The notes under the pieces were generated by a model. The model was not told the origin of the DNA. It searched no databases and worked only from the letters and a program-made list of their open reading frames with translations. Made by a program: the position numbers and the translations under genes. From Escherichia phage ukendt, in the sequence record NC_052661.1: a stretch of 64,000 nt of DNA. One strand, given 5' to 3'. Shown in pieces: positions 6,805 to 64,000 of this stretch (position 1 is its first letter; the number at the start of each line of letters is the position of its first letter).

Positions 6805-6879
6805 GGCCCTGTAGCTCAATGGGAGAGCTGTCGGCTCATAACCGATAGGTAGCTGGATCGAAACCAGCCAGGGCCACCA
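6805..6879 (+). tRNA. tRNA-Met (anticodon CAT; elongator vs initiator vs Ile-lysidine not resolved)
   Basis: Hand-folded cloverleaf: acceptor GGCCCTG/CAGGGCC, D-stem GCTC/GAGC, anticodon loop CTCATAA, T-arm GCTGG-ATCGAAA-CCAGC, encoded CCA. Confidence 0.75.
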
Positions 6880-6881
6880 AC

Positions 6882-6956
6882 GTCTTTATGGTGTAATGGA
6901 TAGCACAGGAGTCTTCTAAACTCTTAGTCAAGGTTCGATTCCTTGTAAAGACACCA
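6882..6956 (+). tRNA. tRNA-Arg (anticodon TCT)
   Basis: Acceptor GTCTTTA/TAAAGAC, anticodon loop CTTCTAA, T-arm CAAGG-TTCGATT-CCTTG, encoded CCA. Confidence 0.75.
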
Positions 6957-7028
6957 GAACATTTTAACATGAATTAGCTCAAGTGATTTGAACCCACTAC
7001 TGATCATGGTGGCAGAGAATGAGGTAAG

Positions 7029-7100
7029 TATGTCAGACATTATAAACAAAGGCCACGGTTATATTAGAAGACATAAATGCTCGAAGAGCACCGTTCGCTG
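7029..7100 (+). CDS. possible 23-codon micro-ORF between tRNA blocks
   Basis: ATG 7029 with GAGG 5 nt upstream; MSDIINKGHGYIRRHKCSKSTVR; may equally be untranslated spacer or RNA. Confidence 0.15.
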
Positions 7101-7152
7101 AGAACGGGGGTTGGTGGAGTCACCATTCATGGTAAAATGTTTTAAAAAACTA

Positions 7153-7182
7153 TTGACAACTAACACTATTTTATGTTAGATT
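7153..7182 (+). promoter_or_regulatory. sigma70-like promoter (TTGACA, 18 nt, TG-extended TAGATT)
   Basis: Exact -35 at 7153..7158; predicted start site a few nt before tRNA-Ser at 7191. Confidence 0.5.
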
Positions 7183-7190
7183 ATAAGCAT

Positions 7191-7281
7191 GGAAGGGCAA
7201 ATCGACGTGGCGACGAAAACGGTCTTGAAAACCGCCGAGCTTGAAAGAGCCTTGGGAGTTCGACTCTCCCTCCTTCCGCCA
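7191..7281 (+). tRNA. tRNA-Ser (anticodon TGA), type II
   Basis: Acceptor GGAAGGG/TCCTTCC, anticodon arm ACGGT-CTTGAAA-ACCGC, long variable arm, T-arm GGGAG-TTCGACT-CTCCC, G73, CCA. Confidence 0.7.
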
Positions 7282-7285
7282 GATT

Positions 7286-7371
7286 GGTAGATTGGTGAAA
7301 TGGTAGCCACGACAGTTTGCTAAACTGTAGTCGGAAACGGCGTGTAGGTTCGAGTCCTACATCTACCGCCA
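7286..7371 (+). tRNA. tRNA-Ser (anticodon GCT), type II
   Basis: Acceptor GGTAGAT/ATCTACC, anticodon arm ACAGT-TTGCTAA-ACTGT, long variable arm, T-arm GTAGG-TTCGAGT-CCTAC, G73, CCA. Confidence 0.75.
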
Positions 7372-7501
7372 AGTTCTTTTTAATGTAGCTTACTTTAGCA
7401 GAGTAAATCTTCGGCAAGTGGCGGTAACCACTTTACCGATACCTCATAGTTAGTGGTGTGAACACTGGCTATTTTAAAAAGAATTTAAATATTAGTATTT
7501 A

Positions 7502-7589
7502 GGTGAGTTAATTCCGTAGGGGTAGCGGGGCAGACTGTAAATCTGTTATCATTGCGATTCGGGTGGTTCGACTCCATCACTCACCACCA
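7502..7589 (+). tRNA. tRNA-Tyr (anticodon GTA), type II, with atypical 5' region
   Basis: Acceptor GGTGAGT/ACTCACC perfect, anticodon arm GCAGA-CTGTAAA-TCTGT, A73, CCA; junction between acceptor and D-arm is longer than canonical. Confidence 0.5.
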
Positions 7590-7595
7590 AATTAA

Positions 7596-7681
7596 GATGA
7601 GTTGGCTGAATGGTTTAAGCGGCGGACTGTTAATCCGTGTTCGAAAGAACAATATAGGTTCGAATCCTATACTCATCGCCA
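7596..7681 (+). tRNA. type II (long variable arm) tRNA with anticodon GTT; isotype ambiguous (Ser-like body, Asn anticodon)
   Basis: Acceptor GATGAGT/ACTCATC, D-stem GCT/AGC, anticodon arm GCGGA-CTGTTAA-TCCGT, variable-arm hairpin GTTC-GAAA-GAAC, T-arm ATAGG-TTCGAAT-CCTAT, G73, CCA. Confidence 0.55.
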
Positions 7682-7688
7682 GAATTAT

Positions 7689-7765
7689 GGACTTGTAGAG
7701 TTAAGGTAAACCCCCAGTCGCCAATAGGCTTCTGGAATTGCAGGTATCGAATCCTGCCGAGTCCC
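7689..7765 (+). pseudogene. tRNA-like remnant (acceptor and T-arm-like pairing, no canonical anticodon arm)
   Basis: GGACTTG...CGAGTCC acceptor-like pairing, T-like GCAGG-TATCGAAT-CCTGC with 8-nt loop, no encoded CCA, no 5-bp/7-nt anticodon arm found. Confidence 0.25.
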
Positions 7766-7771
7766 AGCATT

Positions 7772-7846
7772 GCTCCTATAGTATAATGGCTATTACAACG
7801 GTTTTGTAATCCGTGGATCTCTGTTCGATTCAGTGTGGGAGCACCA
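7772..7846 (+). tRNA. tRNA-Thr (anticodon TGT)
   Basis: Acceptor GCTCCTA/TGGGAGC with one G-U pair, anticodon loop TTTGTAA, T-loop TTCGATT, encoded CCA. Confidence 0.65.
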
Positions 7847-8118
7847 ACACAACATTAAGAGCACTGTGATTGATCGTCGTATCCTGTGCACAAGGTCTGC
7901 TCGAAAGACAGTGTTCTTAGTATTGTGTTGATCACAAAAAGAGTCACCCGAAACTTGACCGGAGTAGGGTTGGATGGGGCAAAATGAGAAGCGGCTCTCC
8001 CATCGACAGCAACGAAGAATAATATTTGACTTTGGTTTTGTATTATTTAAGTTAGCTTACCGAACGTAGGGCTAGTCACCCAACGGGATACTCGTCACTG
8101 TCCCAATCAATAAAAGTC

Positions 8119-8148
8119 TTGACAACAAATAGTAAAATGTAGTATAGT
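8119..8148 (+). promoter_or_regulatory. sigma70-like promoter (TTGACA, 18 nt, TG-extended TATAGT)
   Basis: Exact -35 at 8119..8124 and TATAGT at 8143..8148; predicted start just upstream of tRNA-Gly. Confidence 0.55.
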
Positions 8149-8159
8149 AAAGATATAGG

Positions 8160-8233
8160 GCGTTCTTGGTGTAGCGGTAGCATTCCGTCCTTCCAAGTCG
8201 GCGGCACGAGTTCGATCCTCGTAGAACGCTCCA
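8160..8233 (+). tRNA. tRNA-Gly (anticodon TCC)
   Basis: Acceptor GCGTTCT/AGAACGC, anticodon loop CTTCCAA, T-arm ACGAG-TTCGATC-CTCGT, encoded CCA. Confidence 0.7.
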
Positions 8234-8330
8234 AATTATTTAATAAAGGGTTGCCAGAAAACTTTCTCTTTTACTCATGGTTTTCTCCTTCTCTCACACT
8301 TCTTCTGGTTGCCCTTCATTAAATGATTTT

Positions 8331-8406
8331 TGGTTTGTAGTGTAGTCCGGTAGCACACGACACTTTGACTGTCGTAGGTTTGGTTCAAATCCAGACAGAC
8401 CAGCCA
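8331..8406 (+). tRNA. tRNA-Gln (anticodon TTG)
   Basis: U1-A72 pair and G73 as in enterobacterial tRNA-Gln; anticodon arm CGACA-CTTTGAC-TGTCG; T-loop TTCAAAT; CCA. Confidence 0.7.
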
Positions 8407-8411
8407 TATAA

Positions 8412-8488
8412 CGGAATTTAGCTCAGTTTGGTAGAGTGTACGCTTTGGGAGCGTATTGTCGCAGGTTCGAATCCTGCAATTCCGACCA
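8412..8488 (+). tRNA. tRNA-Pro (anticodon TGG)
   Basis: Acceptor CGGAATT/AATTCCG, anticodon arm TACGC-TTTGGGA-GCGTA, T-arm GCAGG-TTCGAAT-CCTGC, CCA. Confidence 0.8.
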
Positions 8489-8494
8489 ATTAAA

Positions 8495-8568
8495 TGTTTC
8501 GTAGTTCAATGGTAGAACCCACGACTGATAATCGTGAGACACAAGTTCGATTCTTGTCGAAACAACCA
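8495..8568 (+). tRNA. tRNA-Ile (anticodon GAT)
   Basis: Acceptor TGTTTCG/CGAAACA, D-arm GTTC-AATGGTA-GAAC, anticodon arm CACGA-CTGATAA-TCGTG, T-arm ACAAG-TTCGATT-CTTGT, CCA. Confidence 0.8.
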
Positions 8569-8570
8569 GT

Positions 8571-8643
8571 TTCCCGTTAGACTTACAGGATAAGAGTTCC
8601 ACAGCTTATTGTGATGCTGGTTCGAATCCAGCACGGGATACAT
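8571..8643 (+). pseudogene. tRNA-like remnant (good T-arm, degenerate anticodon arm, no CCA)
   Basis: T-arm GCTGG-TTCGAAT-CCAGC and 6/7 acceptor pairing (TTCCCGT/ACGGGAT); no acceptable anticodon stem-loop. Confidence 0.25.
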
Positions 8644-8646
8644 AAT

Positions 8647-8725
8647 AGCGGGATAGAGGAGTCTGGTCGTCCTCGCCAGTTTCATATGCTGGAGATCATT
8701 GGTTCAAATCCGATTCCCGCCTCCA
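8647..8725 (+). tRNA. second CAT-anticodon tRNA (Met/initiator/Ile-lysidine), with a 1-72 mismatch
   Basis: Anticodon arm CCAGT-TTCATAT-GCTGG, T-loop TTCAAAT, acceptor AGCGGGA/TCCCGCC with an A1-C72 mismatch, CCA. Confidence 0.6.
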
Positions 8726-16100: not shown

Positions 16101-17102
16101 ATGCCAGCAGTAATTTTAGATCAGGTTGTAGATTTCAGCCCTATGATCGAACTTCAGGATTCCCCTGATACACTGATTGCCAGCCTGAATCTGTTCAGTG
16201 TTGACTATCATTCAACTACCGCTATTGAAATCGGTAAAGAAAAAGCTGAAGATGCTCTGATCTCCGCTCGTGAGCGTGGTGGTGAGCGTAACTTCCTGAC
16301 CATGAAAAATCCAGAACTGAAAGCGTTCCGCATTCCGTTCTTCCCTCTGGATAAAAACATCAAAGCTCAAGATATTCAATCTTTCCGTAGCTTTGCAATG
16401 GCAGGAATCAATGACTCTCTGCGCACAGACGCTGAAGTTGTTAACCGCTATATGTCCCAGATTCTGCGTGATGTAGCAAAAACCAAAGAAAAAATCTTTG
16501 CAGAAGCAGTTATGGGTCGTGCCTATAACGGCGTAGGTGGTGCAGCTAACTCTGCATACAACTGGTATACCGAATGGGGTGCTACCCAGAAATCTGTTGC
16601 TGTAGACTTTGCTTCTACCACTGTTTCTCCAGCAGCCACTATCGAACAAGAAGCTCGTGCTTACATCATCGATACTAAACAAGATGGCTCTACCGCTACC
16701 CGTATCGTAGCTCTGTGCTCTCGTGAATTTTTCGCATCTCTGGTTAACTCTCCATTTGTTCGCCAGGCGTATCAGTATTTCCAGGGAACTCCTAACCTTC
16801 TGCGTGACCGCCTTAGCGGTAACATGGATGTTCAGGTGTTCGAATGGAACGGTGTAACTTACATTGAAGATATCCACGGTAACATCCCTGCTGGTGAAGC
16901 ATATGTTCTGCCTATGGGTATCGAAGGTATGTTCCAGGCGCACTACGCTCCTGCGGATACTCCAGAACTGGCTAACACCCAGGCTCGTGAACTGTATACC
17001 TTCATGATCAGCCAGCACCGCACTATTCAGCTTCAGTCTGAATTCTCGCTGCTCGCAGTTAACACCCGTCCAGAACTGGTAGTTAAACTGACTACGGCTT
17101 AA
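16101..17102 (+). CDS. major capsid protein
   Basis: 333-aa ORF after scaffold/decoration; strong RBS TAGGAG; high-expression codon choice (ctg, cgt, ggt, aac); followed by a strong terminator. Confidence 0.7.
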   Translation: MPAVILDQVVDFSPMIELQDSPDTLIASLNLFSVDYHSTTAIEIGKEKAEDALISARERGGERNFLTMKNPELKAFRIPFFPLDKNIKAQDIQSFRSFAMAGINDSLRTDAEVVNRYMSQILRDVAKTKEKIFAEAVMGRAYNGVGGAANSAYNWYTEWGATQKSVAVDFASTTVSPAATIEQEARAYIIDTKQDGSTATRIVALCSREFFASLVNSPFVRQAYQYFQGTPNLLRDRLSGNMDVQVFEWNGVTYIEDIHGNIPAGEAYVLPMGIEGMFQAHYAPADTPELANTQARELYTFMISQHRTIQLQSEFSLLAVNTRPELVVKLTTA

Positions 17103-58319: not shown

Positions 58320-58598
58320 TTAAAATGGTTCGTTAGTCTCCATCATATATTCTGCTTCTAGTTCTTCCATGTGCTTTCTAAATTGGAAAGCAATTTCTGC
58401 TACAGTTACATTTAAATCTTTTTCAAAAACTTCTGTAGATCCTTCATAAAAACGAATACCGTCAATTAAAAGCCCTCCGTGGTAATCCCAATCGCTTTCA
58501 CGAGAAAGTGGATTAGGTTCTTCATAATAGTAATCCACCTCCACGACCAAGGCTTTCCCGTTACGAGTGGTGTATTCAAAATCAAAAGTGTTAATCAT
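58320..58598 (-). CDS. hypothetical small protein with acidic-aromatic C-terminus
   Basis: 92 aa ending EAEYMMETNEPF. Confidence 0.35.
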   Translation of the reverse strand: MINTFDFEYTTRNGKALVVEVDYYYEEPNPLSRESDWDYHGGLLIDGIRFYEGSTEVFEKDLNVTVAEIAFQFRKHMEELEAEYMMETNEPF

Positions 58599-59542
58599 TA
58601 TAGCTCCTCAAATAAAAGTCTACGACGCTCATTCAACACATCAATGTGATAATGAGTCCTGACATACTTAGCTAATGCTAATCCTTTCTCCATGCAAACA
58701 TCGGGAGCACTTAATAAGTATTCCGTAATATCTTTCCACTCGGAAGGTGTTTCAGCAAAGAATAACAAATCTTTAAACTCTTGTGTATGATAATTCTCAC
58801 GAGGAGAGCAGATTAAAGGTAAACCCTTAGCACCTGCCTCAAGAATTTTAAGATTGCTTTTTGCATTATTAAACACGTTATCGATCAATGGTGCAAGACT
58901 GATTTGATGACCATCGTAAGATTCCATGTAGTTGGCATATGGTCTTACACCTTCATAAACACAAGTTGGTGCTACATTTTCCCTGATTAAAGACCATTCA
59001 CGACTACTTAAAACTTCAGAATCCCTACGAAAACCACATATTGTAAGATCTTTACCAAAATCGGGCAAGATAGCCAAATCTTGTTTATGTGTTTCACTTC
59101 CAGCCCAGACTAATGGAGTTTTGGAGTAGCGATCACGGGTCAACACAAATTGACCTTCATCGTAAGGAAGTCCATTAGGGATTATGTGCACATTATCATT
59201 GTATTGTGAAAGTTCAACTTGCAAGGCAGGTGTCGTAGTTGTAACAAGATCACTGTGCTCTAAAAACCATTTTAAATGTTCACGAATACCTGATTCAAAA
59301 ATACCTTCTAACATGTGTCCTTTTGGAATAACTAAAGAGTCATCCAAATCCATAACCATTTTAAAGCCCAGGTTTTTAAGGGCTAAAAAGCCCTCTTTAC
59401 CTTTTGTTGGCACTCCGTTAAAAACGAAAACGTTGTGTTTAGGTTGTGAAGAGAACTGCCTTGAGTAAGGCAGCACTACCCTATGGAAATCGCAGACACT
59501 ATAATTGATTCCGTTACGATTGTCAAGAATTATTTGTCCCAT
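58598..59542 (-). CDS. glycosyltransferase (GT-B-like), paralogue 1
   Basis: 314 aa; TPLVWAGSETH and KSNLKILEAGAKGLPLICS resemble the donor-binding C-terminal half of GT-B enzymes; paralogous to next gene. Confidence 0.55.
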   Translation of the reverse strand: MGQIILDNRNGINYSVCDFHRVVLPYSRQFSSQPKHNVFVFNGVPTKGKEGFLALKNLGFKMVMDLDDSLVIPKGHMLEGIFESGIREHLKWFLEHSDLVTTTTPALQVELSQYNDNVHIIPNGLPYDEGQFVLTRDRYSKTPLVWAGSETHKQDLAILPDFGKDLTICGFRRDSEVLSSREWSLIRENVAPTCVYEGVRPYANYMESYDGHQISLAPLIDNVFNNAKSNLKILEAGAKGLPLICSPRENYHTQEFKDLLFFAETPSEWKDITEYLLSAPDVCMEKGLALAKYVRTHYHIDVLNERRRLLFEEL

Positions 59543-59549
59543 ACTTCAC

Positions 59550-60497
59550 CTACAAACTTTCAATAACCTGGCGTCGCAATTCGTTTGCATCTGCCAGATT
59601 ATAATGTGTTCGAACATGTTCCGCTAAGAACAAGCCGCGATCTTCCCGATAGTTCGGATTGCGAAGAAGCTTAACAATTTCGTAATGCCATTCAGCTTTA
59701 TTCTCTGCGTAAGCAACAGCGCGAGCATCTACAGGGTTAAAATAAGGTAATACCTTAGAACAAACAATCGGAATACCTTTTGCCCCAGCTTCAAGGATTT
59801 TGAGATTACTTTTACAATTATTAAAATCATTGTCTACCAAAGGAGCTATAGCAATAGCATGACTTTCGTAAACACTCATGTAATTATCTAAATCTTTTAC
59901 AGCAGCTTTATATTTGGCGTTTGGTAAATTTCTACGGATCTTAATCCACTCTTGCCCTGTGATACTCTGCGATGCTTCATATCCTGCAATAGTAAGAAGT
60001 TCATCATCGAAAGTATTAGAGACTAGTCGTAAATCGGGTTCGTGACTAGCACCGCCAGCCCATACAACAGGGGTACCGGATGAACGATCATTTGACAAAG
60101 TGAATTGTCCGCTATCAAAAGGAAGTGCATTTCGGATCACAACAACATTCCTATTTAAGTGACGGATTTTATATGCCAAATATTCCGTAGTCACAATGAC
60201 CACATCGGCAAGCTTAACCATAGCTACAATAGCATGAGTGTTTGACTCATATAAACTTGCTAAATAATGTTCTGGATTAAGTTGGTAGAAATCATCTAAA
60301 TCTACAACAATCTTAACACCTTGACGTTTCAGGGACAGAACATATTCTGCCCCTTTAGAATGAATACGGTTAAACACGACAACATCTTTCTTAGGCTGAA
60401 AATTATTGTTGTTAAATGGTATAACAATACGATGATAATCACAACCACTGTGAGGTTTTGCATCAATTTTCAGTTTAGTCCATTTTTTATTTGACAT
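59550..60497 (-). CDS. glycosyltransferase (GT-B-like), paralogue 2 (start refined from track start 60536)
   Basis: TPVVWAGGASH and KSNLKILEAGAKGIPIVCS; internal ATG 60497 has an AGGAGG RBS and aligns with the paralogue N-terminus. Confidence 0.55.
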   Translation of the reverse strand: MSNKKWTKLKIDAKPHSGCDYHRIVIPFNNNNFQPKKDVVVFNRIHSKGAEYVLSLKRQGVKIVVDLDDFYQLNPEHYLASLYESNTHAIVAMVKLADVVIVTTEYLAYKIRHLNRNVVVIRNALPFDSGQFTLSNDRSSGTPVVWAGGASHEPDLRLVSNTFDDELLTIAGYEASQSITGQEWIKIRRNLPNAKYKAAVKDLDNYMSVYESHAIAIAPLVDNDFNNCKSNLKILEAGAKGIPIVCSKVLPYFNPVDARAVAYAENKAEWHYEIVKLLRNPNYREDRGLFLAEHVRTHYNLADANELRRQVIESL

Positions 60498-61170
60498 GTG
60501 CCAGTGCCTCCTCATAAGAAATTCGGATTTTCCCATTTTTAATATCTTCTAAAGACGCTTTATATTCTTCCCAGTTAATGCCAATAGCAGCTTCTTTCTC
60601 TTCTTTTGTCAGATTAGCAAAAGGCATAGGATTGTTTCCAAAAACATCGTCTGGGTGGATATAAGCCATGATACGAAGTGGACAAGGTATTGCCTGAATG
60701 CCCTGATTCAAACCAGCAGCTTTCAAACGGTGTACCCATTCAGCATCTTCAAAACCATAGCCGTGAGTGTAAGGGCGGAAATAACCCATCTTCTCAATAA
60801 CGGCACGAGAATACATTGCAAATTGACACATTGCAAGTTCCCAGAGAATAACTTCTCCTTTACTCCCAACAACTTTATCTTTGAAATACTCCGGCATACC
60901 AAAGAAATCCCATCCTCCAGAGACAGCTTGATCTACAAAATATGTTTCCCATCCCTCCATGATTGGGTAGCAATCGTCGTCAAAAATAAACCAATAATCA
61001 TAACCTTCTTCATAAAACTGGTGCATAAGTTCATTCCTGGCGTAAGCTACACCTTTACGATCTGGATCGTTGAATACTCGAAAATCTGCATGTGGATCTG
61101 TTACAAGGTAGTCTTTAAGTGGACGGACACCTACAGTGATAACACCCACTCCGATTTTAATATTTTCCAT
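60487..61170 (-). CDS. glycosyltransferase (GT-A-like, DxD motif)
   Basis: 227 aa; YDYWFIFDDDCYP acidic DxD-type motif. Confidence 0.5.
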   Translation of the reverse strand: MENIKIGVGVITVGVRPLKDYLVTDPHADFRVFNDPDRKGVAYARNELMHQFYEEGYDYWFIFDDDCYPIMEGWETYFVDQAVSGGWDFFGMPEYFKDKVVGSKGEVILWELAMCQFAMYSRAVIEKMGYFRPYTHGYGFEDAEWVHRLKAAGLNQGIQAIPCPLRIMAYIHPDDVFGNNPMPFANLTKEEKEAAIGINWEEYKASLEDIKNGKIRISYEEALAHVK

Positions 61171-61178
61171 TTTCTCTC

Positions 61179-61742
61179 CTAAATAGTTTTACTGTGATCG
61201 TGACAGTGTAATAAATGATGTATAGACCGTTGAGGATTTGTTTGACCTAATCTGTAAATGTGAAACAGATACATTCCCCGCATCAATCCTAACCTCTTTC
61301 CTTTTTCATGTAAAGTGCGAGAGAAAATTAAGTCGAATTGGATAGATTTTTCTTCGAAAGGAATTTCATTCCACAATGATTTTCTAAAAAGCAAAAAGAA
61401 ACCTGCCAGAGGTGTTCCGAAAGGAACTTCTTCAACACTCACTTTATGATATTCTCTTGCAATCTTAGCATATTTTATATGGTTTAGAATGTCTGGATCA
61501 TCGTTAATTTGGTTAGAGAAAAGCTGATAACCACTACCTAACCTGTTACAAGTTGCACCTATTACATCAAAAGGCGGGTTTGACATAACAAGCTCTTCAA
61601 GCATAGATGGTTGATCAGGCAGGAGGAACATTGTATCGGTATCTCTTAAACACACCCAACTATCATCTGGAAGAACGGCAATAGCTTCATTGATAGCCTT
61701 GCCGATATTTCCTGTCAGATAGGGAGTAATATAATAAATCAT
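61179..61742 (-). CDS. putative glycosyltransferase (small GT-A-like)
   Basis: 187 aa; VCLRDTDTMF acidic motif; first gene of the four-gene block. Confidence 0.4.
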   Translation of the reverse strand: MIYYITPYLTGNIGKAINEAIAVLPDDSWVCLRDTDTMFLLPDQPSMLEELVMSNPPFDVIGATCNRLGSGYQLFSNQINDDPDILNHIKYAKIAREYHKVSVEEVPFGTPLAGFFLLFRKSLWNEIPFEEKSIQFDLIFSRTLHEKGKRLGLMRGMYLFHIYRLGQTNPQRSIHHLLHCHDHSKTI

Positions 61743-62206: not shown

Positions 62207-62505
62207 TCTACAGCATCATGAGTCCTTGCAAAACGCTCCCACAGCACAGCATCTACTTTAAGAACCATACAAGGATAAATACTGTCGTTGATCATATCAA
62301 TGCTATATTTATCTACATCCTTTTCATCTTCCATAAACAAAGTAGCGTATGCTTCCAAATGTTTATGGGTGTAGTATACGTCCTCTTCGGTAAGACCGAC
62401 AACCAGGTAACTTGCTACAACAACAGTATTATCTTCTTGCATTTTAACTCCCCTTTGGTAGATAGAAACCATGCACTTTATCTCGATAAACAAGACGCAT
62501 ATCAC
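62158..62505 (-). CDS. hypothetical protein (may start at the internal Met after the endolysin stop)
   Basis: 115-aa track ORF overlaps the endolysin 3' end by ~60 nt. Confidence 0.3.
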   Translation of the reverse strand: MICVLFIEIKCMVSIYQRGVKMQEDNTVVVASYLVVGLTEEDVYYTHKHLEAYATLFMEDEKDVDKYSIDMINDSIYPCMVLKVDAVLWERFARTHDAVECSAVMSQNNILGEIH

Positions 62506-62965
62506 GCTCCCAGTGTGTCCTTATATTCCGTTTCTTGAAGTATAGAGCACCTTTAGTAACATCTAAAACAGACCGCAATTCAGGAAAATGTTTCTCTAAA
62601 TAAAGTAAACGTTCCGCTATTGCTTTTGCTTCCTGCCACTTATCTTTCTCTGTTACGTTAAAAGTTTTCGCATATGAGAATTGCCCTTTCTGGAACAAGA
62701 CTCCTCTGACTGTGTTAGGGAAGTATGTATCATTTCTTCTGTTGATTACTACATTCCCAACGGCATTCATTCCTTTTTTACCCAGACCTCGACCTTCTGC
62801 GTAAATTGCACAAGCTAATAGAATTTTATCATTATATTGCTTTGTACATTTGTGAACTACTTTAGCGGTTTTTACGTTTGCAGCTTCGGCTTTCGCCACA
62901 ACAGGTGTAAATGTAAAAGCAGTTAAGGATAGTAACGCAACTGTTACAAAGTTTTTTATCAGCAA
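62444..62965 (-). CDS. endolysin, SleB/CwlJ-type cell-wall hydrolase with N-terminal signal sequence
   Basis: N-terminal hydrophobic leader ending AKA-EA; mature region contains LLACAIYAEGRG...VGNVVINR...VLFQKGQFSY. Confidence 0.65.
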   Translation of the reverse strand: MLIKNFVTVALLSLTAFTFTPVVAKAEAANVKTAKVVHKCTKQYNDKILLACAIYAEGRGLGKKGMNAVGNVVINRRNDTYFPNTVRGVLFQKGQFSYAKTFNVTEKDKWQEAKAIAERLLYLEKHFPELRSVLDVTKGALYFKKRNIRTHWERDMRLVYRDKVHGFYLPKGS

Positions 62966-63066
62966 ATTTTGCCTCCTTTTTAAGTTAACGAATTTCTAGT
63001 ATAACACGATAGAGGCTTTATTGCAAGAGGGGGATTTCTCCCCCCCTCAAAATCATTTGTTAATTA

Positions 63067-63669
63067 TTATGGACATTCATACCATTCTTTTTTACCACCG
63101 AAGGCCATCACCACATCACAAATATCCAGACCAGCTTTACCTACACCATATGCTTTCAGCTTCCATTCCCCATCTTCACGAACCAAGGAAGCCACGTGGC
63201 AGATTGTGTTGCCAGCTACTTCAGGAGCCAGGAAGTCAAAATCCAGAATTTCCACATTGCGCTCGGAGTCGAAGATTTTAAGCATACCTTCAGAAGCATG
63301 ACCAAAACGTTTCAGACCTGTATCATCATCAATGGTCAGAACAAAGGCAATCTCTTGTGCATCAGGAGAGATTTTAGCCAGAGTAATATCAATCTGCTCC
63401 ATGCTGCCAGTTCCATCACGAACATCATCACCAGCAAAGGTAGAACGTTCAGGATCAAACTTGTTAGCATAGCAAACCAGATGACGTGCAGACAGCATTT
63501 CAGGATTGCCAGCGGCATTGTGACGACAAACCAGTGCACTTACATCCAGATCCAGTTTAGAATCAGATTTCCAAGAGAATTCCAGGCGCAGTTCTTTCAG
63601 AGCCGGAGCAACTTTCTTCAGGGAAATTTTTTCGCTAGAGCCTTTTTTCAGGGAAATTTTATCAGTCAT
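63067..63669 (-). CDS. TerD-family protein
   Basis: 200 aa; ISLKKGSSEKISLKK N-terminal repeat, LDLDVSA, FVLTIDDD and GEWKLKAYGVGKAGL align with hallmark segments of bacterial TerD. Confidence 0.7.
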   Translation of the reverse strand: MTDKISLKKGSSEKISLKKVAPALKELRLEFSWKSDSKLDLDVSALVCRHNAAGNPEMLSARHLVCYANKFDPERSTFAGDDVRDGTGSMEQIDITLAKISPDAQEIAFVLTIDDDTGLKRFGHASEGMLKIFDSERNVEILDFDFLAPEVAGNTICHVASLVREDGEWKLKAYGVGKAGLDICDVVMAFGGKKEWYECP

Positions 63670-63684
63670 CTTTTGTCTCCTCTA

Positions 63685-63954
63685 TTATTTAAGTGTAATA
63701 CCAGTTACAGTCAATTCTACTTCCAAAAGCTTAGATGTGTTTTGGATTGATACTAATTGTGCATGATGGTTTAGTTCTACAGCAGAATAATCATTTTCCC
63801 CATCGTCTACTTTTAAATAAACAATGATTTCACTAAGATCTAAACCATTTTCGTCAAATGCATTTTCATAGACGAAAGTATCTCCTACATCCAAATCTTT
63901 AATGGTAAGGCATCGTTTATTTACTTTTTGCTCATCAATTTCGAAGTTTAACAC
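63685..63954 (-). CDS. hypothetical protein
   Basis: 89-aa acidic ORF at the window edge. Confidence 0.35.
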   Translation of the reverse strand: MLNFEIDEQKVNKRCLTIKDLDVGDTFVYENAFDENGLDLSEIIVYLKVDDGENDYSAVELNHHAQLVSIQNTSKLLEVELTVTGITLK

Positions 63955-64000
63955 TTCTTCCTCCTAATGTTATCTCCGGTTTGTATATACGAAGAATTAT

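What the first reader, a model, noticed from the sequence alone, without database searches (positions are those of the whole stretch)
63067..63669. Phage-encoded TerD-family protein
The 200-aa ORF matches hallmark segments of bacterial TerD stress proteins (N-terminal SLKKG repeat, DLD...D acidic motifs, C-terminal GEWK-x-x-A-x-G-x-G-x-AGL). The function of TerD-family proteins in a virulent phage is not established; it could manipulate host stress or Ca-dependent pathways or counter a defence system.
Basis: partly seen in the sequence, partly recalled or inferred. Interest (0 to 1): 0.5.

Follow-up and report, generated by a model that had tools for sequence, protein, structure and literature searches.

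The report
Phage TerD gene, part of Ter module
The 200-aa ORF is a genuine TerD-family protein of a phAPEC8-type coliphage, the last gene of a phage-borne "Ter" membrane-stress module that others have already annotated and discussed, though nobody has tested what it does.

Summary
Window 63067-63669 (minus strand) encodes a 200-aa protein that matches Pfam TerD at 98.9 bits (cutoff 25.3). Its predicted fold is a TerD beta-sandwich, and it is under strong purifying selection. The window is a Phapecoctavirus (phAPEC8-like). The identical protein occurs in more than 60 public phage genomes, some already labelled "TerD family", "tellurium resistance" or "general stress protein 16U". It is not a lone gene. 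Just past the window's end lie vWA(TerF-like), TelA, TerC, a PRTase, a HAD and a Macro gene. The TelA/vWA/TerC/TerD set recurs in several unrelated phage lineages and has been described before (Iyer et al. 2021, which proposes superinfection exclusion). What I add: this coliphage clade is small and sharply separated, at about 30% identity to host TerD/TerE. It keeps most of Ca site 1, but the second Ca2+ site is remodelled by a 2-residue deletion and D88 to Met/Leu/Phe. It has one TerD where other phage modules have two. In phAPEC8-type genomes a perfect sigma-70 consensus promoter sits upstream, suggesting early expression. Function is still inferred. The most likely role is as soluble partner of the phage TerC/TelA/vWA envelope module. 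Verdict: real, already known, modest interest.

The parts
63067..63669 (-). TerD-family protein coding sequence (200 aa, ATG start, TAA stop)
   Evidence: ORF. Pfam PF02342 98.9 bits. PDB 2kxt and 3ibz. AF2 model plus Foldseek. dN/dS 0-0.13 against orthologs.
63677..63682 (-). Ribosome-binding site GAGGAG, 7 nt before the ATG
   Evidence: Read directly from the sequence.
63685..63954 (-). 89-aa ORF of unknown function (GTG start, AGGAGG RBS), 15 nt upstream of TerD and probably co-transcribed with it. An ORF of the same size sits in the same position in distant relatives.
   Evidence: ORF. No Pfam hit. PHROG 11278 'unknown' E=7e-45. 88-90-aa ORFs in the same place in L003 and L004.
63996..64000 (-). 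Last 5 bases (ATAAT) of the -10 box of a perfect sigma-70 consensus promoter. The rest lies beyond the window end, as seen in the 99%-identical phage SKA64.
   Evidence: L001 8647-8674: TTGACA-16-TATAAT with TG, 12/12. Mapping to the window and chance expectation of 0.017 per 10.8 kb. Inferred, not shown, to be active.
63025..63048 (-). 10-bp G/C-rich hairpin 19 nt after the TerD stop, with no U-run. It may mark the end of the transcription unit, but the evidence is weak.
   Evidence: Fold centroid -18.5 kcal/mol, but z = -1.7 for the 86-nt stretch. Not called by the terminator scan.
62444..62965 (-). Downstream neighbour: SleB/Hydrolase_2-type endolysin with a signal-peptide-like N-terminus, preceded by a promoter-like site (63026..62998). 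This is context and probably not part of the Ter module.
   Evidence: Pfam Hydrolase_2 1.9e-17. PHROG endolysin. Promoter-like TTGCAA-17-TATACT with TG. The adjacency is absent in unrelated phage Ter modules.

Best explanation
The gene encodes a soluble, cytoplasmic TerD-domain beta-sandwich protein. It is the last gene of a phage-encoded, abbreviated Ter module: HAD - PRTase - Macro ... TerC ... TelA ... vWA(TerF-C-type) - 89 aa - TerD. The identity, the fold and the module membership are shown here. The rest is inferred. TerD is probably made early from a host sigma-70 promoter. It probably binds Ca2+ at one retained acidic site (D40, D42, D82, E91), because the second canonical site is remodelled. 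It probably acts as the cytoplasmic partner of the phage's own TerC membrane protein, together with the sub-membrane TelA and vWA proteins. By analogy with plasmid ter operons, TerC and TerD are the essential core, and the operon gives phage inhibition and resistance to pore-forming colicins. On that analogy the module would change the envelope or ion status of the infected cell, shutting out competing phages or colicins and keeping the membrane intact until programmed lysis. My confidence is about 0.97 that this is a TerD-family member of a phage Ter module, and about 0.4 for the exclusion/envelope-protection role. The single confidence figure given for this explanation (0.45) reflects the functional part.
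For: Identity: Pfam TerD 98.9 bits, PDB TerD hits, AF2 pLDDT 87 and Foldseek hits to 3ibz, 2kxt, 2qz7 and B. subtilis SCP2/YceC with TM 0.84. Functional constraint: all 8 nucleotide differences from SKA64 are synonymous, dN/dS is 0.13 against phi92 and 0.06 between two distant relatives. Module: in 99%-identical SKA64 and in phi92, vWA-TerF-like (1.6e-37), TelA (3e-33), TerC (1e-38), PRTase_3 (8e-42), HAD and Macro lie upstream on the same strand. The same order holds at about 53% TerD identity. TelA/vWA/TerC/TerD also recur in unrelated phage lineages: CcrColossus, Kikimora, L009 and L011. Literature: phage Ter systems and the superinfection-exclusion proposal (PMC7824862). Insertions in terC, terD and terZ abolish phage inhibition and colicin resistance, and TerC-TerD is the minimal unit (PMC12054061). 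TerD/TerE dimerise and dock on TerC (PMC4633105). Ca ligands: W29, D40, L41, D42, D78 and E89 are retained. Early expression: a 12/12 sigma-70 promoter lies upstream, and the gene sits in the replication-gene arm.
Against: I found no experiment on any phage-encoded TerD. The module lacks TerB, TerZ, TerA and the ATP-grasp/StiP genes of the bacterial system, so phenotypes of plasmid ter operons may not transfer. The second Ca site is not conserved, so canonical Ca sensing is uncertain. The strong promoter is not conserved in the distant relatives. Most of the module lies outside the window and is inferred from near-identical genomes.
Confidence: 0.45

Rival explanations
1. Counter-defence decoy. 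The phage TerD heterodimerises with host TerD/TerE, or occupies host TerC, and so disables the host ter operon's phage-inhibition activity.
For: Host ter operons inhibit phages and need terD. TerD-family proteins heterodimerise. 1013 of 5426 complete E. coli genomes carry terD, including O157:H7 strains on which these phages are isolated. The remodelled Ca2 loop could mark a 'dead' paralog.
Against: The phage brings its own TerC, TelA and vWA, which a decoy would not need. The protein is 100% conserved in phages isolated on ter-less K-12 MG1655. It is only 30-31% identical to host TerD/E. The same four-gene set occurs in phages of hosts as distant as Caulobacter.
Confidence: 0.12
2. Small-molecule sensor or sponge. 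TerD binds the nucleoside-like product of the neighbouring phage PRTase/HAD enzymes, or a host nucleotide signal, rather than acting mainly through Ca2+.
For: PRTase_3 and HAD genes accompany the module in both genera. The published model assigns TerD and TerB a ligand-sensing role. Eukaryotic TerD homologs are reported to bind cAMP. The altered acidic loop fits a changed ligand.
Against: The PRTase/HAD genes are absent from the compact Caulobacter, Brevundimonas, L009 and L011 modules that still have TerD. The Ca1 acidic residues are invariant in the clade. No ligand is known for any bacterial TerD other than Ca2+.
Confidence: 0.1
3. Lysis-timing or membrane-integrity helper. With TerC and TelA it keeps the membrane energised so that the adjacent exported endolysin is not activated too early.
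For: TerD sits immediately upstream of a signal-peptide-bearing SleB-type endolysin in the window and in relatives at 53% identity. A relative has a Band_7/SPFH gene in the module. Jug phages pair a terD gene with a pspA-like gene.
Against: The adjacency is confined to one related group of phages. phi92 has another gene inserted between the two. Unrelated phage Ter modules are not next to lysis genes. The endolysin has its own promoter-like site.
Confidence: 0.12
4. Metal homeostasis function. The module exports or buffers Mn, Zn or Ca in the infected cell, or gives tellurite resistance, with TerD as the metal-binding subunit and no role in conflict with other phages.
For: Klebsiella terC contributes to Zn(II) and Mn(II) resistance and the operon is Zn-inducible. 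A Streptomyces TerD-domain gene is linked to Ca homeostasis. PHROGs files TelA and TerC under 'moron, auxiliary metabolic gene'.
Against: A lytic phage gains little from long-term metal resistance in its host. The metal-binding loop is less acidic than in canonical TerD. There is no phage-specific evidence.
Confidence: 0.1
5. A decaying or functionless passenger gene.
For: The module is incomplete compared with terZABCDEF, and the Ca loop is degenerate.
Against: dN/dS is 0 to 0.13 within the subfamily, the protein is 100% identical in more than 60 isolates from around the world, and the ORF is intact with conserved synteny at 53% identity.
Confidence: 0.02

Closest known systems
phi92 gp172 and the identical phAPEC8-type proteins in GenBank (PHROG 5698)
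   Same: The protein is 100% identical in more than 60 Phapecoctavirus records and 81% identical in Justusliebigvirus (phi92 gp172). The neighbours are the same. Some records already call it TerD family, tellurium resistance, or general stress protein 16U.
   Different: Nothing of substance differs. Many records still say 'hypothetical protein' and PHROGs lists the family as unknown function.
Klebsiella/E. coli plasmid TerD and TerE (PDB 2KXT) of the terZABCDEF operon
   Same: Same Pfam domain, same length, same beta-sandwich fold. The DxD, GD and E ligands of Ca site 1 are conserved, as is the C-terminal GEWK..A.G.G motif.
   Different: Only 30-31% identical. The 13-residue GDNRTGxGDGDDE loop is 2 residues shorter, with N79 to V and D88 to M. 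TIH[DE]A becomes TIDDD. No TerB, TerZ or TerA partners are encoded, and the linked PRTase belongs to a different family.
Abbreviated Ter modules of other phages (Caulobacter CcrColossus gp219-222, Brevundimonas Kikimora, phiKp34, PhiPsa374, Acinetobacter ME3)
   Same: TerD is co-encoded with TelA, a TerF-type vWA protein and TerC. The published proposal is that these act against superinfecting phages or xenobiotics.
   Different: Those I examined are compact operons whose TerD keeps the canonical acidic loop, and the L009 and L011 modules have two TerD paralogs. Here the genes are spread over about 8 kb with interspersed small ORFs, there is a single TerD with a remodelled loop, and PRTase, HAD and Macro genes sit nearby.
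Bacillus subtilis YceC/YceD/YceE (SCP2, general stress protein 16U)
   Same: The best structural match is the SCP2 chain of PDB 9a6r (TM 0.84). Automatic annotation often names the phage gene after YceD. From my own knowledge, the yceCDEFGH operon likewise combines TerD paralogs with a TerC-family protein (YceF) and a TelA-family protein (YceH).
   Different: About 24% identity. That system is bacterial, envelope-stress regulated, and has three TerD paralogs. 9a6r is itself an integrative (partly predicted) model.

Membership tests
TerD domain family (Pfam PF02342) | Profile match over the whole domain above the curated threshold | tested here: met
   98.9 bits against a cutoff of 25.3, E=3.2e-28, profile positions 3-177 of 187. 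The phi92 ortholog scores 98.2 bits.
TerD domain family (Pfam PF02342) | Beta-sandwich fold of solved TerD proteins | tested here: met
   AF2 model with pLDDT 87.4 and pTM 0.87. Foldseek hits 3ibz 7.7e-14, 2kxt 1.2e-11, 2qng and 2qz7, all at probability 1.00. This is a predicted structure, not an experimental one.
TerD domain family (Pfam PF02342) | Ca2+ site 1 ligands (Klebsiella TerD residues 40, 41, 42, 78, 79, 89) | tested here: met
   D40, L41, D42, D82 (=D78) and E91 (=E89) are invariant in the clade. N79 is replaced by V or Q. Five of six positions are kept.
TerD domain family (Pfam PF02342) | Ca2+ site 2 ligands (residues 29, 82, 84, 88) | tested here: not met
   W29 and G84 are kept. 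G82 falls in a 2-residue deletion. D88 is M, L, F or K throughout the clade. The loop is intact in Klebsiella TerD/E/Z, in Photobacterium and in the Caulobacter and Brevundimonas phage TerDs. D88 is absent in roughly a third of the other family members sampled, so this feature defines the canonical subgroup rather than the whole family.
TerD domain family (Pfam PF02342) | Measured Ca2+ binding | not testable with these tools
   This needs ITC or NMR on purified protein.
Bacterial terZABCDEF tellurite / phage-inhibition / colicin-resistance system | TerC membrane protein encoded with TerD | tested here: met
   TerC 1e-38 lies about 6 kb upstream on the same strand in SKA64, and likewise in phi92 and L003. 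It lies outside the window.
Bacterial terZABCDEF tellurite / phage-inhibition / colicin-resistance system | TerB, plus the TerZ and TerA paralogs | tested here: not met
   None of the ORFs of the roughly 10-kb SKA64 module that I scanned has a TerB hit or a second TerD hit. The Klebsiella locus has all of them.
Bacterial terZABCDEF tellurite / phage-inhibition / colicin-resistance system | Linked biosynthetic genes (ATPgrasp_Ter, PRTase_2+TRSP, StiP, HAD) | tested here: inconclusive
   The phage has a PRTase and a HAD, but the PRTase is PRTase_3 (ComF-like), and there is no ATP-grasp or StiP.
Bacterial terZABCDEF tellurite / phage-inhibition / colicin-resistance system | Tellurite resistance, phage inhibition and colicin resistance phenotypes | not testable with these tools
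   This needs expression and deletion experiments.
Phage-encoded abbreviated Ter module (TelA + TerF-type vWA + TerC + TerD; Iyer et al. 2021) | All four components encoded together on one strand of a phage genome | tested here: met
   SKA64 and phi92. Relatives L003 and L004. The window itself holds only TerD.
Phage-encoded abbreviated Ter module (TelA + TerF-type vWA + TerC + TerD; Iyer et al. 2021) | Recurrence of the set in unrelated phage lineages | tested here: met
   Dolichocephalovirinae. Metagenomic phage contigs L009, L010 and L011. Literature.
Known anti-phage defence protein families (PADLOC-DB) | Match to any defence-system model | tested here: not met
   No hit for TerD, vWA, TelA, TerC or the PRTase. 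Only the neighbouring Macro protein hits DarG.

The most novel reading that the evidence does not exclude
This coliphage clade's TerD has a shortened, less acidic loop that lacks the second Ca2+ site. It is the only TerD in its module, and in phAPEC8-type genomes it follows a consensus early promoter. It may therefore have been repurposed. It could be a dominant-negative partner that poisons host TerD/TerE-TerC complexes. It could instead be a binder of the nucleoside-like product of the neighbouring PRTase/HAD enzymes. Either would give a first defined molecular role for a Ter protein in a genetically tractable E. coli phage.
Probability: 0.12. Interest if true: 0.6.

Novelty: already known. 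Interest (0 to 1): 0.27.

Why it matters
After about 40 years the mechanism of Ter proteins is still unknown, in bacteria as well as in phages. Ter operons matter clinically: they mark EHEC and hypervirulent Klebsiella and affect phage sensitivity. A compact Ter module in coliphages that grow on K-12 would be a convenient system for knockouts and for reconstituting TerC-TerD-TelA-vWA function. It also matters for phage therapy dossiers, because these phages are repeatedly flagged for "tellurium resistance" genes. The finding itself adds no new class of gene. It confirms an annotation and refines it with the clade-specific Ca-loop variant and the probable early promoter.

Tried and rejected
- I asked whether phi92 gp171, a 200-aa gene directly after gp172, is a second TerD paralog. 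It has no Pfam hit and no similarity to gp172.
- I asked whether the 89-aa upstream ORF or the 82-aa ORF are TerD or TerB fragments. Neither has a Pfam hit, and both fall in PHROGs of unknown function.
- PADLOC gave no defence-family match for TerD or its partners.
- NCBIfam gave only a sub-threshold SpoVABEA hit (16 bits against a cutoff of 200), which is noise.
- I looked for recent capture from the host. There is no DNA match in 5426 E. coli genomes and only about 30% protein identity to host paralogs.
- I tested the hairpin after the stop codon as an intrinsic terminator. It has no U-run, z is -1.7, and the scan does not call it.
- I tested elevated GC as a sign of horizontal transfer or high expression. 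GC is +2 sd but GC3 only +1.1 sd, so it reflects mostly amino-acid composition.
- The foundational papers (Anantharaman 2012 and Whelan 1995) are not in the library. I therefore took their content second-hand from papers that cite them.
- The phage PRTase shows no similarity to the unannotated gene in the Klebsiella ter biosynthetic cluster.

Full report
**1. The observation**

Window 63067-63669 holds a 200-codon ORF on the minus strand. It has an ATG start, a GAGGAG ribosome-binding site 7 nt upstream, and a TAA stop.
- SLKK at residues 6-9 and 16-19
- LDLD at 39-42
- GDDVRDGTGSME at 80-91
- TIDDD at 112-116
- GEWKLKAYGVGKAGL at 167-181

Pfam TerD (PF02342) scores E=3.2e-28 and 98.9 bits against a gathering cutoff of 25.3, over profile positions 3-177 of 187. 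Sequence search of the PDB finds Klebsiella TerD (2kxt, 1.5e-15) and a Streptomyces TerD-like protein (3ibz, 2.9e-14).

An AlphaFold2 model built on a 15-sequence alignment is confident (pLDDT 87.4, pTM 0.87) and is an all-beta sandwich. Confidence dips only at residues 81-90. Foldseek against the PDB returns only TerD-family structures at high confidence: 9a6r chain B (the SCP2 chain, which I take from my own knowledge to be B. subtilis YceC; TM 0.84), 3ibz, 2kxt, 2qng and 2qz7.

The gene is under purifying selection. All 8 nucleotide differences from phage SKA64 are synonymous. dN/dS is 0.13 against phi92 and 0.06 between two distant relatives.

**2. Where it sits**

The window is a phAPEC8-like Phapecoctavirus of the subfamily Stephanstirmvirinae. 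The 1.6 kb around the gene is 99% identical to dozens of ~150-kb coliphage genomes.

The protein is 100% identical in at least 63 phage records. It is 81-91% identical in related genera, including phi92 gp172. Public annotation is inconsistent: "hypothetical protein", "putative stress protein", "general stress protein 16U", "tellurium resistance protein" and "TerD family protein" all appear. PHROGs lists its family (5698) as unknown function.

In the window, the gene lies at the end of the leftward arm. That arm also encodes DNA polymerase, a methyltransferase, primase-helicase, four glycosyltransferases and a SleB-type endolysin. It faces the rightward structural block.

**3. It is one part of a phage Ter module**

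In SKA64 (99% identical), and in phi92 with local differences, the same strand carries the following genes in order:
- a HAD hydrolase
- PRTase_3 (7.7e-42)
- a Macro-domain protein
- TerC (1e-38)
- a SprT-like protein
- TelA (3e-33)
- a TerF-C-terminal-type vWA protein (1.6e-37)
- small ORFs
- TerD
- the endolysin

Relatives whose TerD is only about 53% identical keep the order TerC ... TelA - ~200 aa - vWA - ~89 aa - TerD - endolysin - ... - primase-helicase - PolA.

The TelA/vWA/TerC/TerD set is not just inherited synteny within one subfamily. Caulobacter phage CcrColossus and Brevundimonas phage Kikimora carry a compact TelA-vWA-TerC-TerD operon. The nearest outgroups of the present clade sit in TerC-TelA-vWA-TerD-TerD and TelA-TelA-vWA-TerC-TerD-TerD arrays. 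One of these lies beside a phage tail gene. The nearest bacterial hit in the plasmid collection (Photobacterium, 36%) lies in a TelA-TelA-TerD-TerD cluster. The endolysin adjacency, in contrast, is confined to this group of related phages.

**4. What is already published**

- Iyer, Anantharaman and Aravind (PMC7824862) describe Ter systems in jumbo "and certain other related smaller tailed phages". They assign PRTase and HAD to signal synthesis, TerB and TerD to ligand sensing, TerC to the membrane response, and TelA plus TerF-vWA to sub-membrane structures. They propose use against superinfecting phages.
- RAST labelled phi92 gp172 and gp173 as TerD, and gp178 as a tellurite resistance protein, in a 2015 study.
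- Jug phages transcribe three terD genes strongly.
- I found no experiment on any phage TerD.

On the bacterial side:
- TerC-TerD is reported as the minimal functional unit.
- A Klebsiella terC deletion gives larger plaques.
- TerD and TerE heterodimerise and reach TerC through TerE and TerB.

**5. What is particular to this clade**

An exhaustive phmmer scan of 1.84 billion cluster representatives finds only three clusters at E<=1e-30: the protein's own cluster and two at 51-52% identity. The next are at 38% and 34%, followed by a continuum near 30%. The clade is therefore small and sharply separated. It is 31% identical to Klebsiella TerE, 30% to TerD and 24% to TerZ.

The published Ca2+ ligands of Klebsiella TerD are Ca1 = residues 40, 41, 42, 78, 79, 89 and Ca2 = residues 29, 82, 84, 88 (PMC8779313 citing Pan 2011). 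Mapping them gives this result:
- W29, D40, L41, D42, D78 and E89 are kept and are invariant in the clade.
- N79 is V or Q.
- T81-G82 are deleted.
- D88 is M, L, F or K.

The canonical GDNRTGxGDGDDE loop is intact in Klebsiella TerD/E/Z, in both Photobacterium TerDs, and in the Caulobacter and Brevundimonas phage TerDs. The two nearest outgroups share the shorter loop. Canonical TIH[DE]A is TIDD[DEA] here. I infer that one Ca2+ site is retained and the second is lost or altered. This inference rests on alignment, not on coordinates, and roughly a third of the other family members sampled also lack D88.

This clade also has a single TerD where other phage modules have two. It lacks TerB, TerZ, TerA, ATPgrasp_Ter and StiP. 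Its PRTase is PRTase_3, whereas the Klebsiella ter locus has PRTase_2.

**6. Expression signals**

A perfect 12/12 sigma-70 consensus with an extended -10 box (TTGACA-16-TG-n-TATAAT) lies at SKA64 L001 8647-8674. That maps to window ~64023-63996, so only the last five bases of the -10 box fall inside the window. About 0.017 such sites are expected by base composition in the 10.8 kb scanned. It would drive the 89-aa ORF (63685-63954) and TerD, which are 15 nt apart.

phi92 has a 10/12 site 65 nt upstream of gp172. The distant relatives have nothing at 10/12 or better.

A 10-bp hairpin follows the TerD stop. It has no U-run and is not statistically distinctive. A promoter-like site precedes the endolysin. 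TerC in SKA64 has its own promoter-like site, and a terminator-like hairpin immediately follows its stop codon. These are consensus matches only. Early transcription by host RNA polymerase is an inference.

**7. Mechanism**

Shown here: the gene is a TerD-fold protein, it is selectively maintained, and it is embedded in a recurrent phage TelA/vWA/TerC/TerD module.

Inferred: it is a cytoplasmic protein, probably binding a single Ca2+, that partners the phage TerC with TelA and vWA at the inner face of the membrane. It probably acts early in infection. By analogy with plasmid ter operons, it may shut out competing phages and pore-forming colicins or stabilise the envelope until lysis. My confidence in this role is about 0.4.

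The rivals are as follows:
- A decoy against the host Ter system. About 19% of complete E. coli genomes carry terD. However, the phage encodes its own TerC, TelA and vWA, and the protein is strictly conserved in phages isolated on ter-less K-12.
- A sensor or sponge for the PRTase/HAD product or another nucleotide.
- A membrane-integrity or lysis-timing helper linked to the exported endolysin.
- Plain metal homeostasis.
- A decaying gene, which the selection data exclude.

**8. Verdict**

The gene is real but already known. The identical protein is public, in part correctly annotated, and phage Ter modules have been described and interpreted. The additions here are the module context, the clade-specific remodelling of the second Ca2+ site, the single-TerD architecture and the probable early promoter. 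Interest is modest. It rests on the long-unsolved function of Ter proteins and on the fact that these coliphages would be a tractable system in which to test it.

Noticed in passing
window 63996-64000 (-) and beyond the window end; L001 8647-8674: A perfect 12/12 sigma-70 consensus promoter with an extended -10 box lies upstream of the 89-aa ORF and TerD. Only the last 5 bases of the -10 box are inside the window. About 0.017 such sites are expected by composition per 10.8 kb.
   Followed up: partly
window 62444-62965 (-): The SleB/Hydrolase_2-type endolysin starts with TTG and has a signal-peptide-like N-terminus (MLIKNFVTVALLSLTAFTFTPVVAKA). This suggests an exported endolysin. A promoter-like site with a TG-extended -10 box sits at 63026..62998.
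   Followed up: partly
L001 1016-1489 (SKA64); phi92 gp185: The Macro-domain protein between the PRTase and TerC matches the PADLOC DarG antitoxin model (E=4e-10). It could be an anti-DarT counter-defence gene rather than part of the Ter module.
   Followed up: no
L001 1727-2801: TerC appears to be monocistronic. It has its own promoter-like site (TTGACA-16-TAAGAT), and a hairpin matched by the terminator scan follows its stop codon directly. The Ter genes would then be several separate transcription units rather than one operon.
   Followed up: no
window 63685-63954 (-): An 89-aa ORF of unknown function (PHROG 11278) sits immediately upstream of TerD, and ORFs of 88-90 aa occupy the same position in relatives whose TerD is 53% identical. 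It is unusually AT-rich (GC 31%). In phi92 the vWA gene directly precedes TerD with no ORF between them.
   Followed up: partly
window 63067-63669 (-): TerD has the second-highest GC content of the 41 large ORFs in the window (44.1% against a mean of 39.4%, sd 2.3). The highest is the ORF at 16101-17102. GC3 is only +1.1 sd.
   Followed up: partly
phage records: Genomes 99% identical to this coliphage region, or carrying a phi92-type copy of the gene, are deposited as Acinetobacter, Klebsiella, Campylobacter, Pseudomonas and Serratia phages. Several of these host labels look doubtful.
   Followed up: no
window 6805-8725 (+): A cluster of 10 tRNA genes: Met x2, Arg, Ser, Asn, Thr, Gly, Gln, Pro, Ile.
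   Followed up: no
window 58598-61742 (-): Four consecutive putative glycosyltransferase genes lie between the primase-helicase and the endolysin. They are so annotated in the near-identical phages SKA64 and phi92, and ORFs of similar size hold the same position in the distant relatives. Their substrate is unknown.
   Followed up: no
L004 12776-16282; L003 4332-5213: A distant relative's DNA polymerase I gene carries an intein with an HNH domain (1168 aa). Another relative has a Band_7/SPFH gene between TerC and TelA.
   Followed up: no
L002 10650-11252 (phi92 gp171): phi92-type phages have an extra 200-aa gene of unknown function (PHROG 22473) inserted between TerD and the endolysin. It is absent from the phAPEC8-type window and is not a TerD paralog.
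   Followed up: yes
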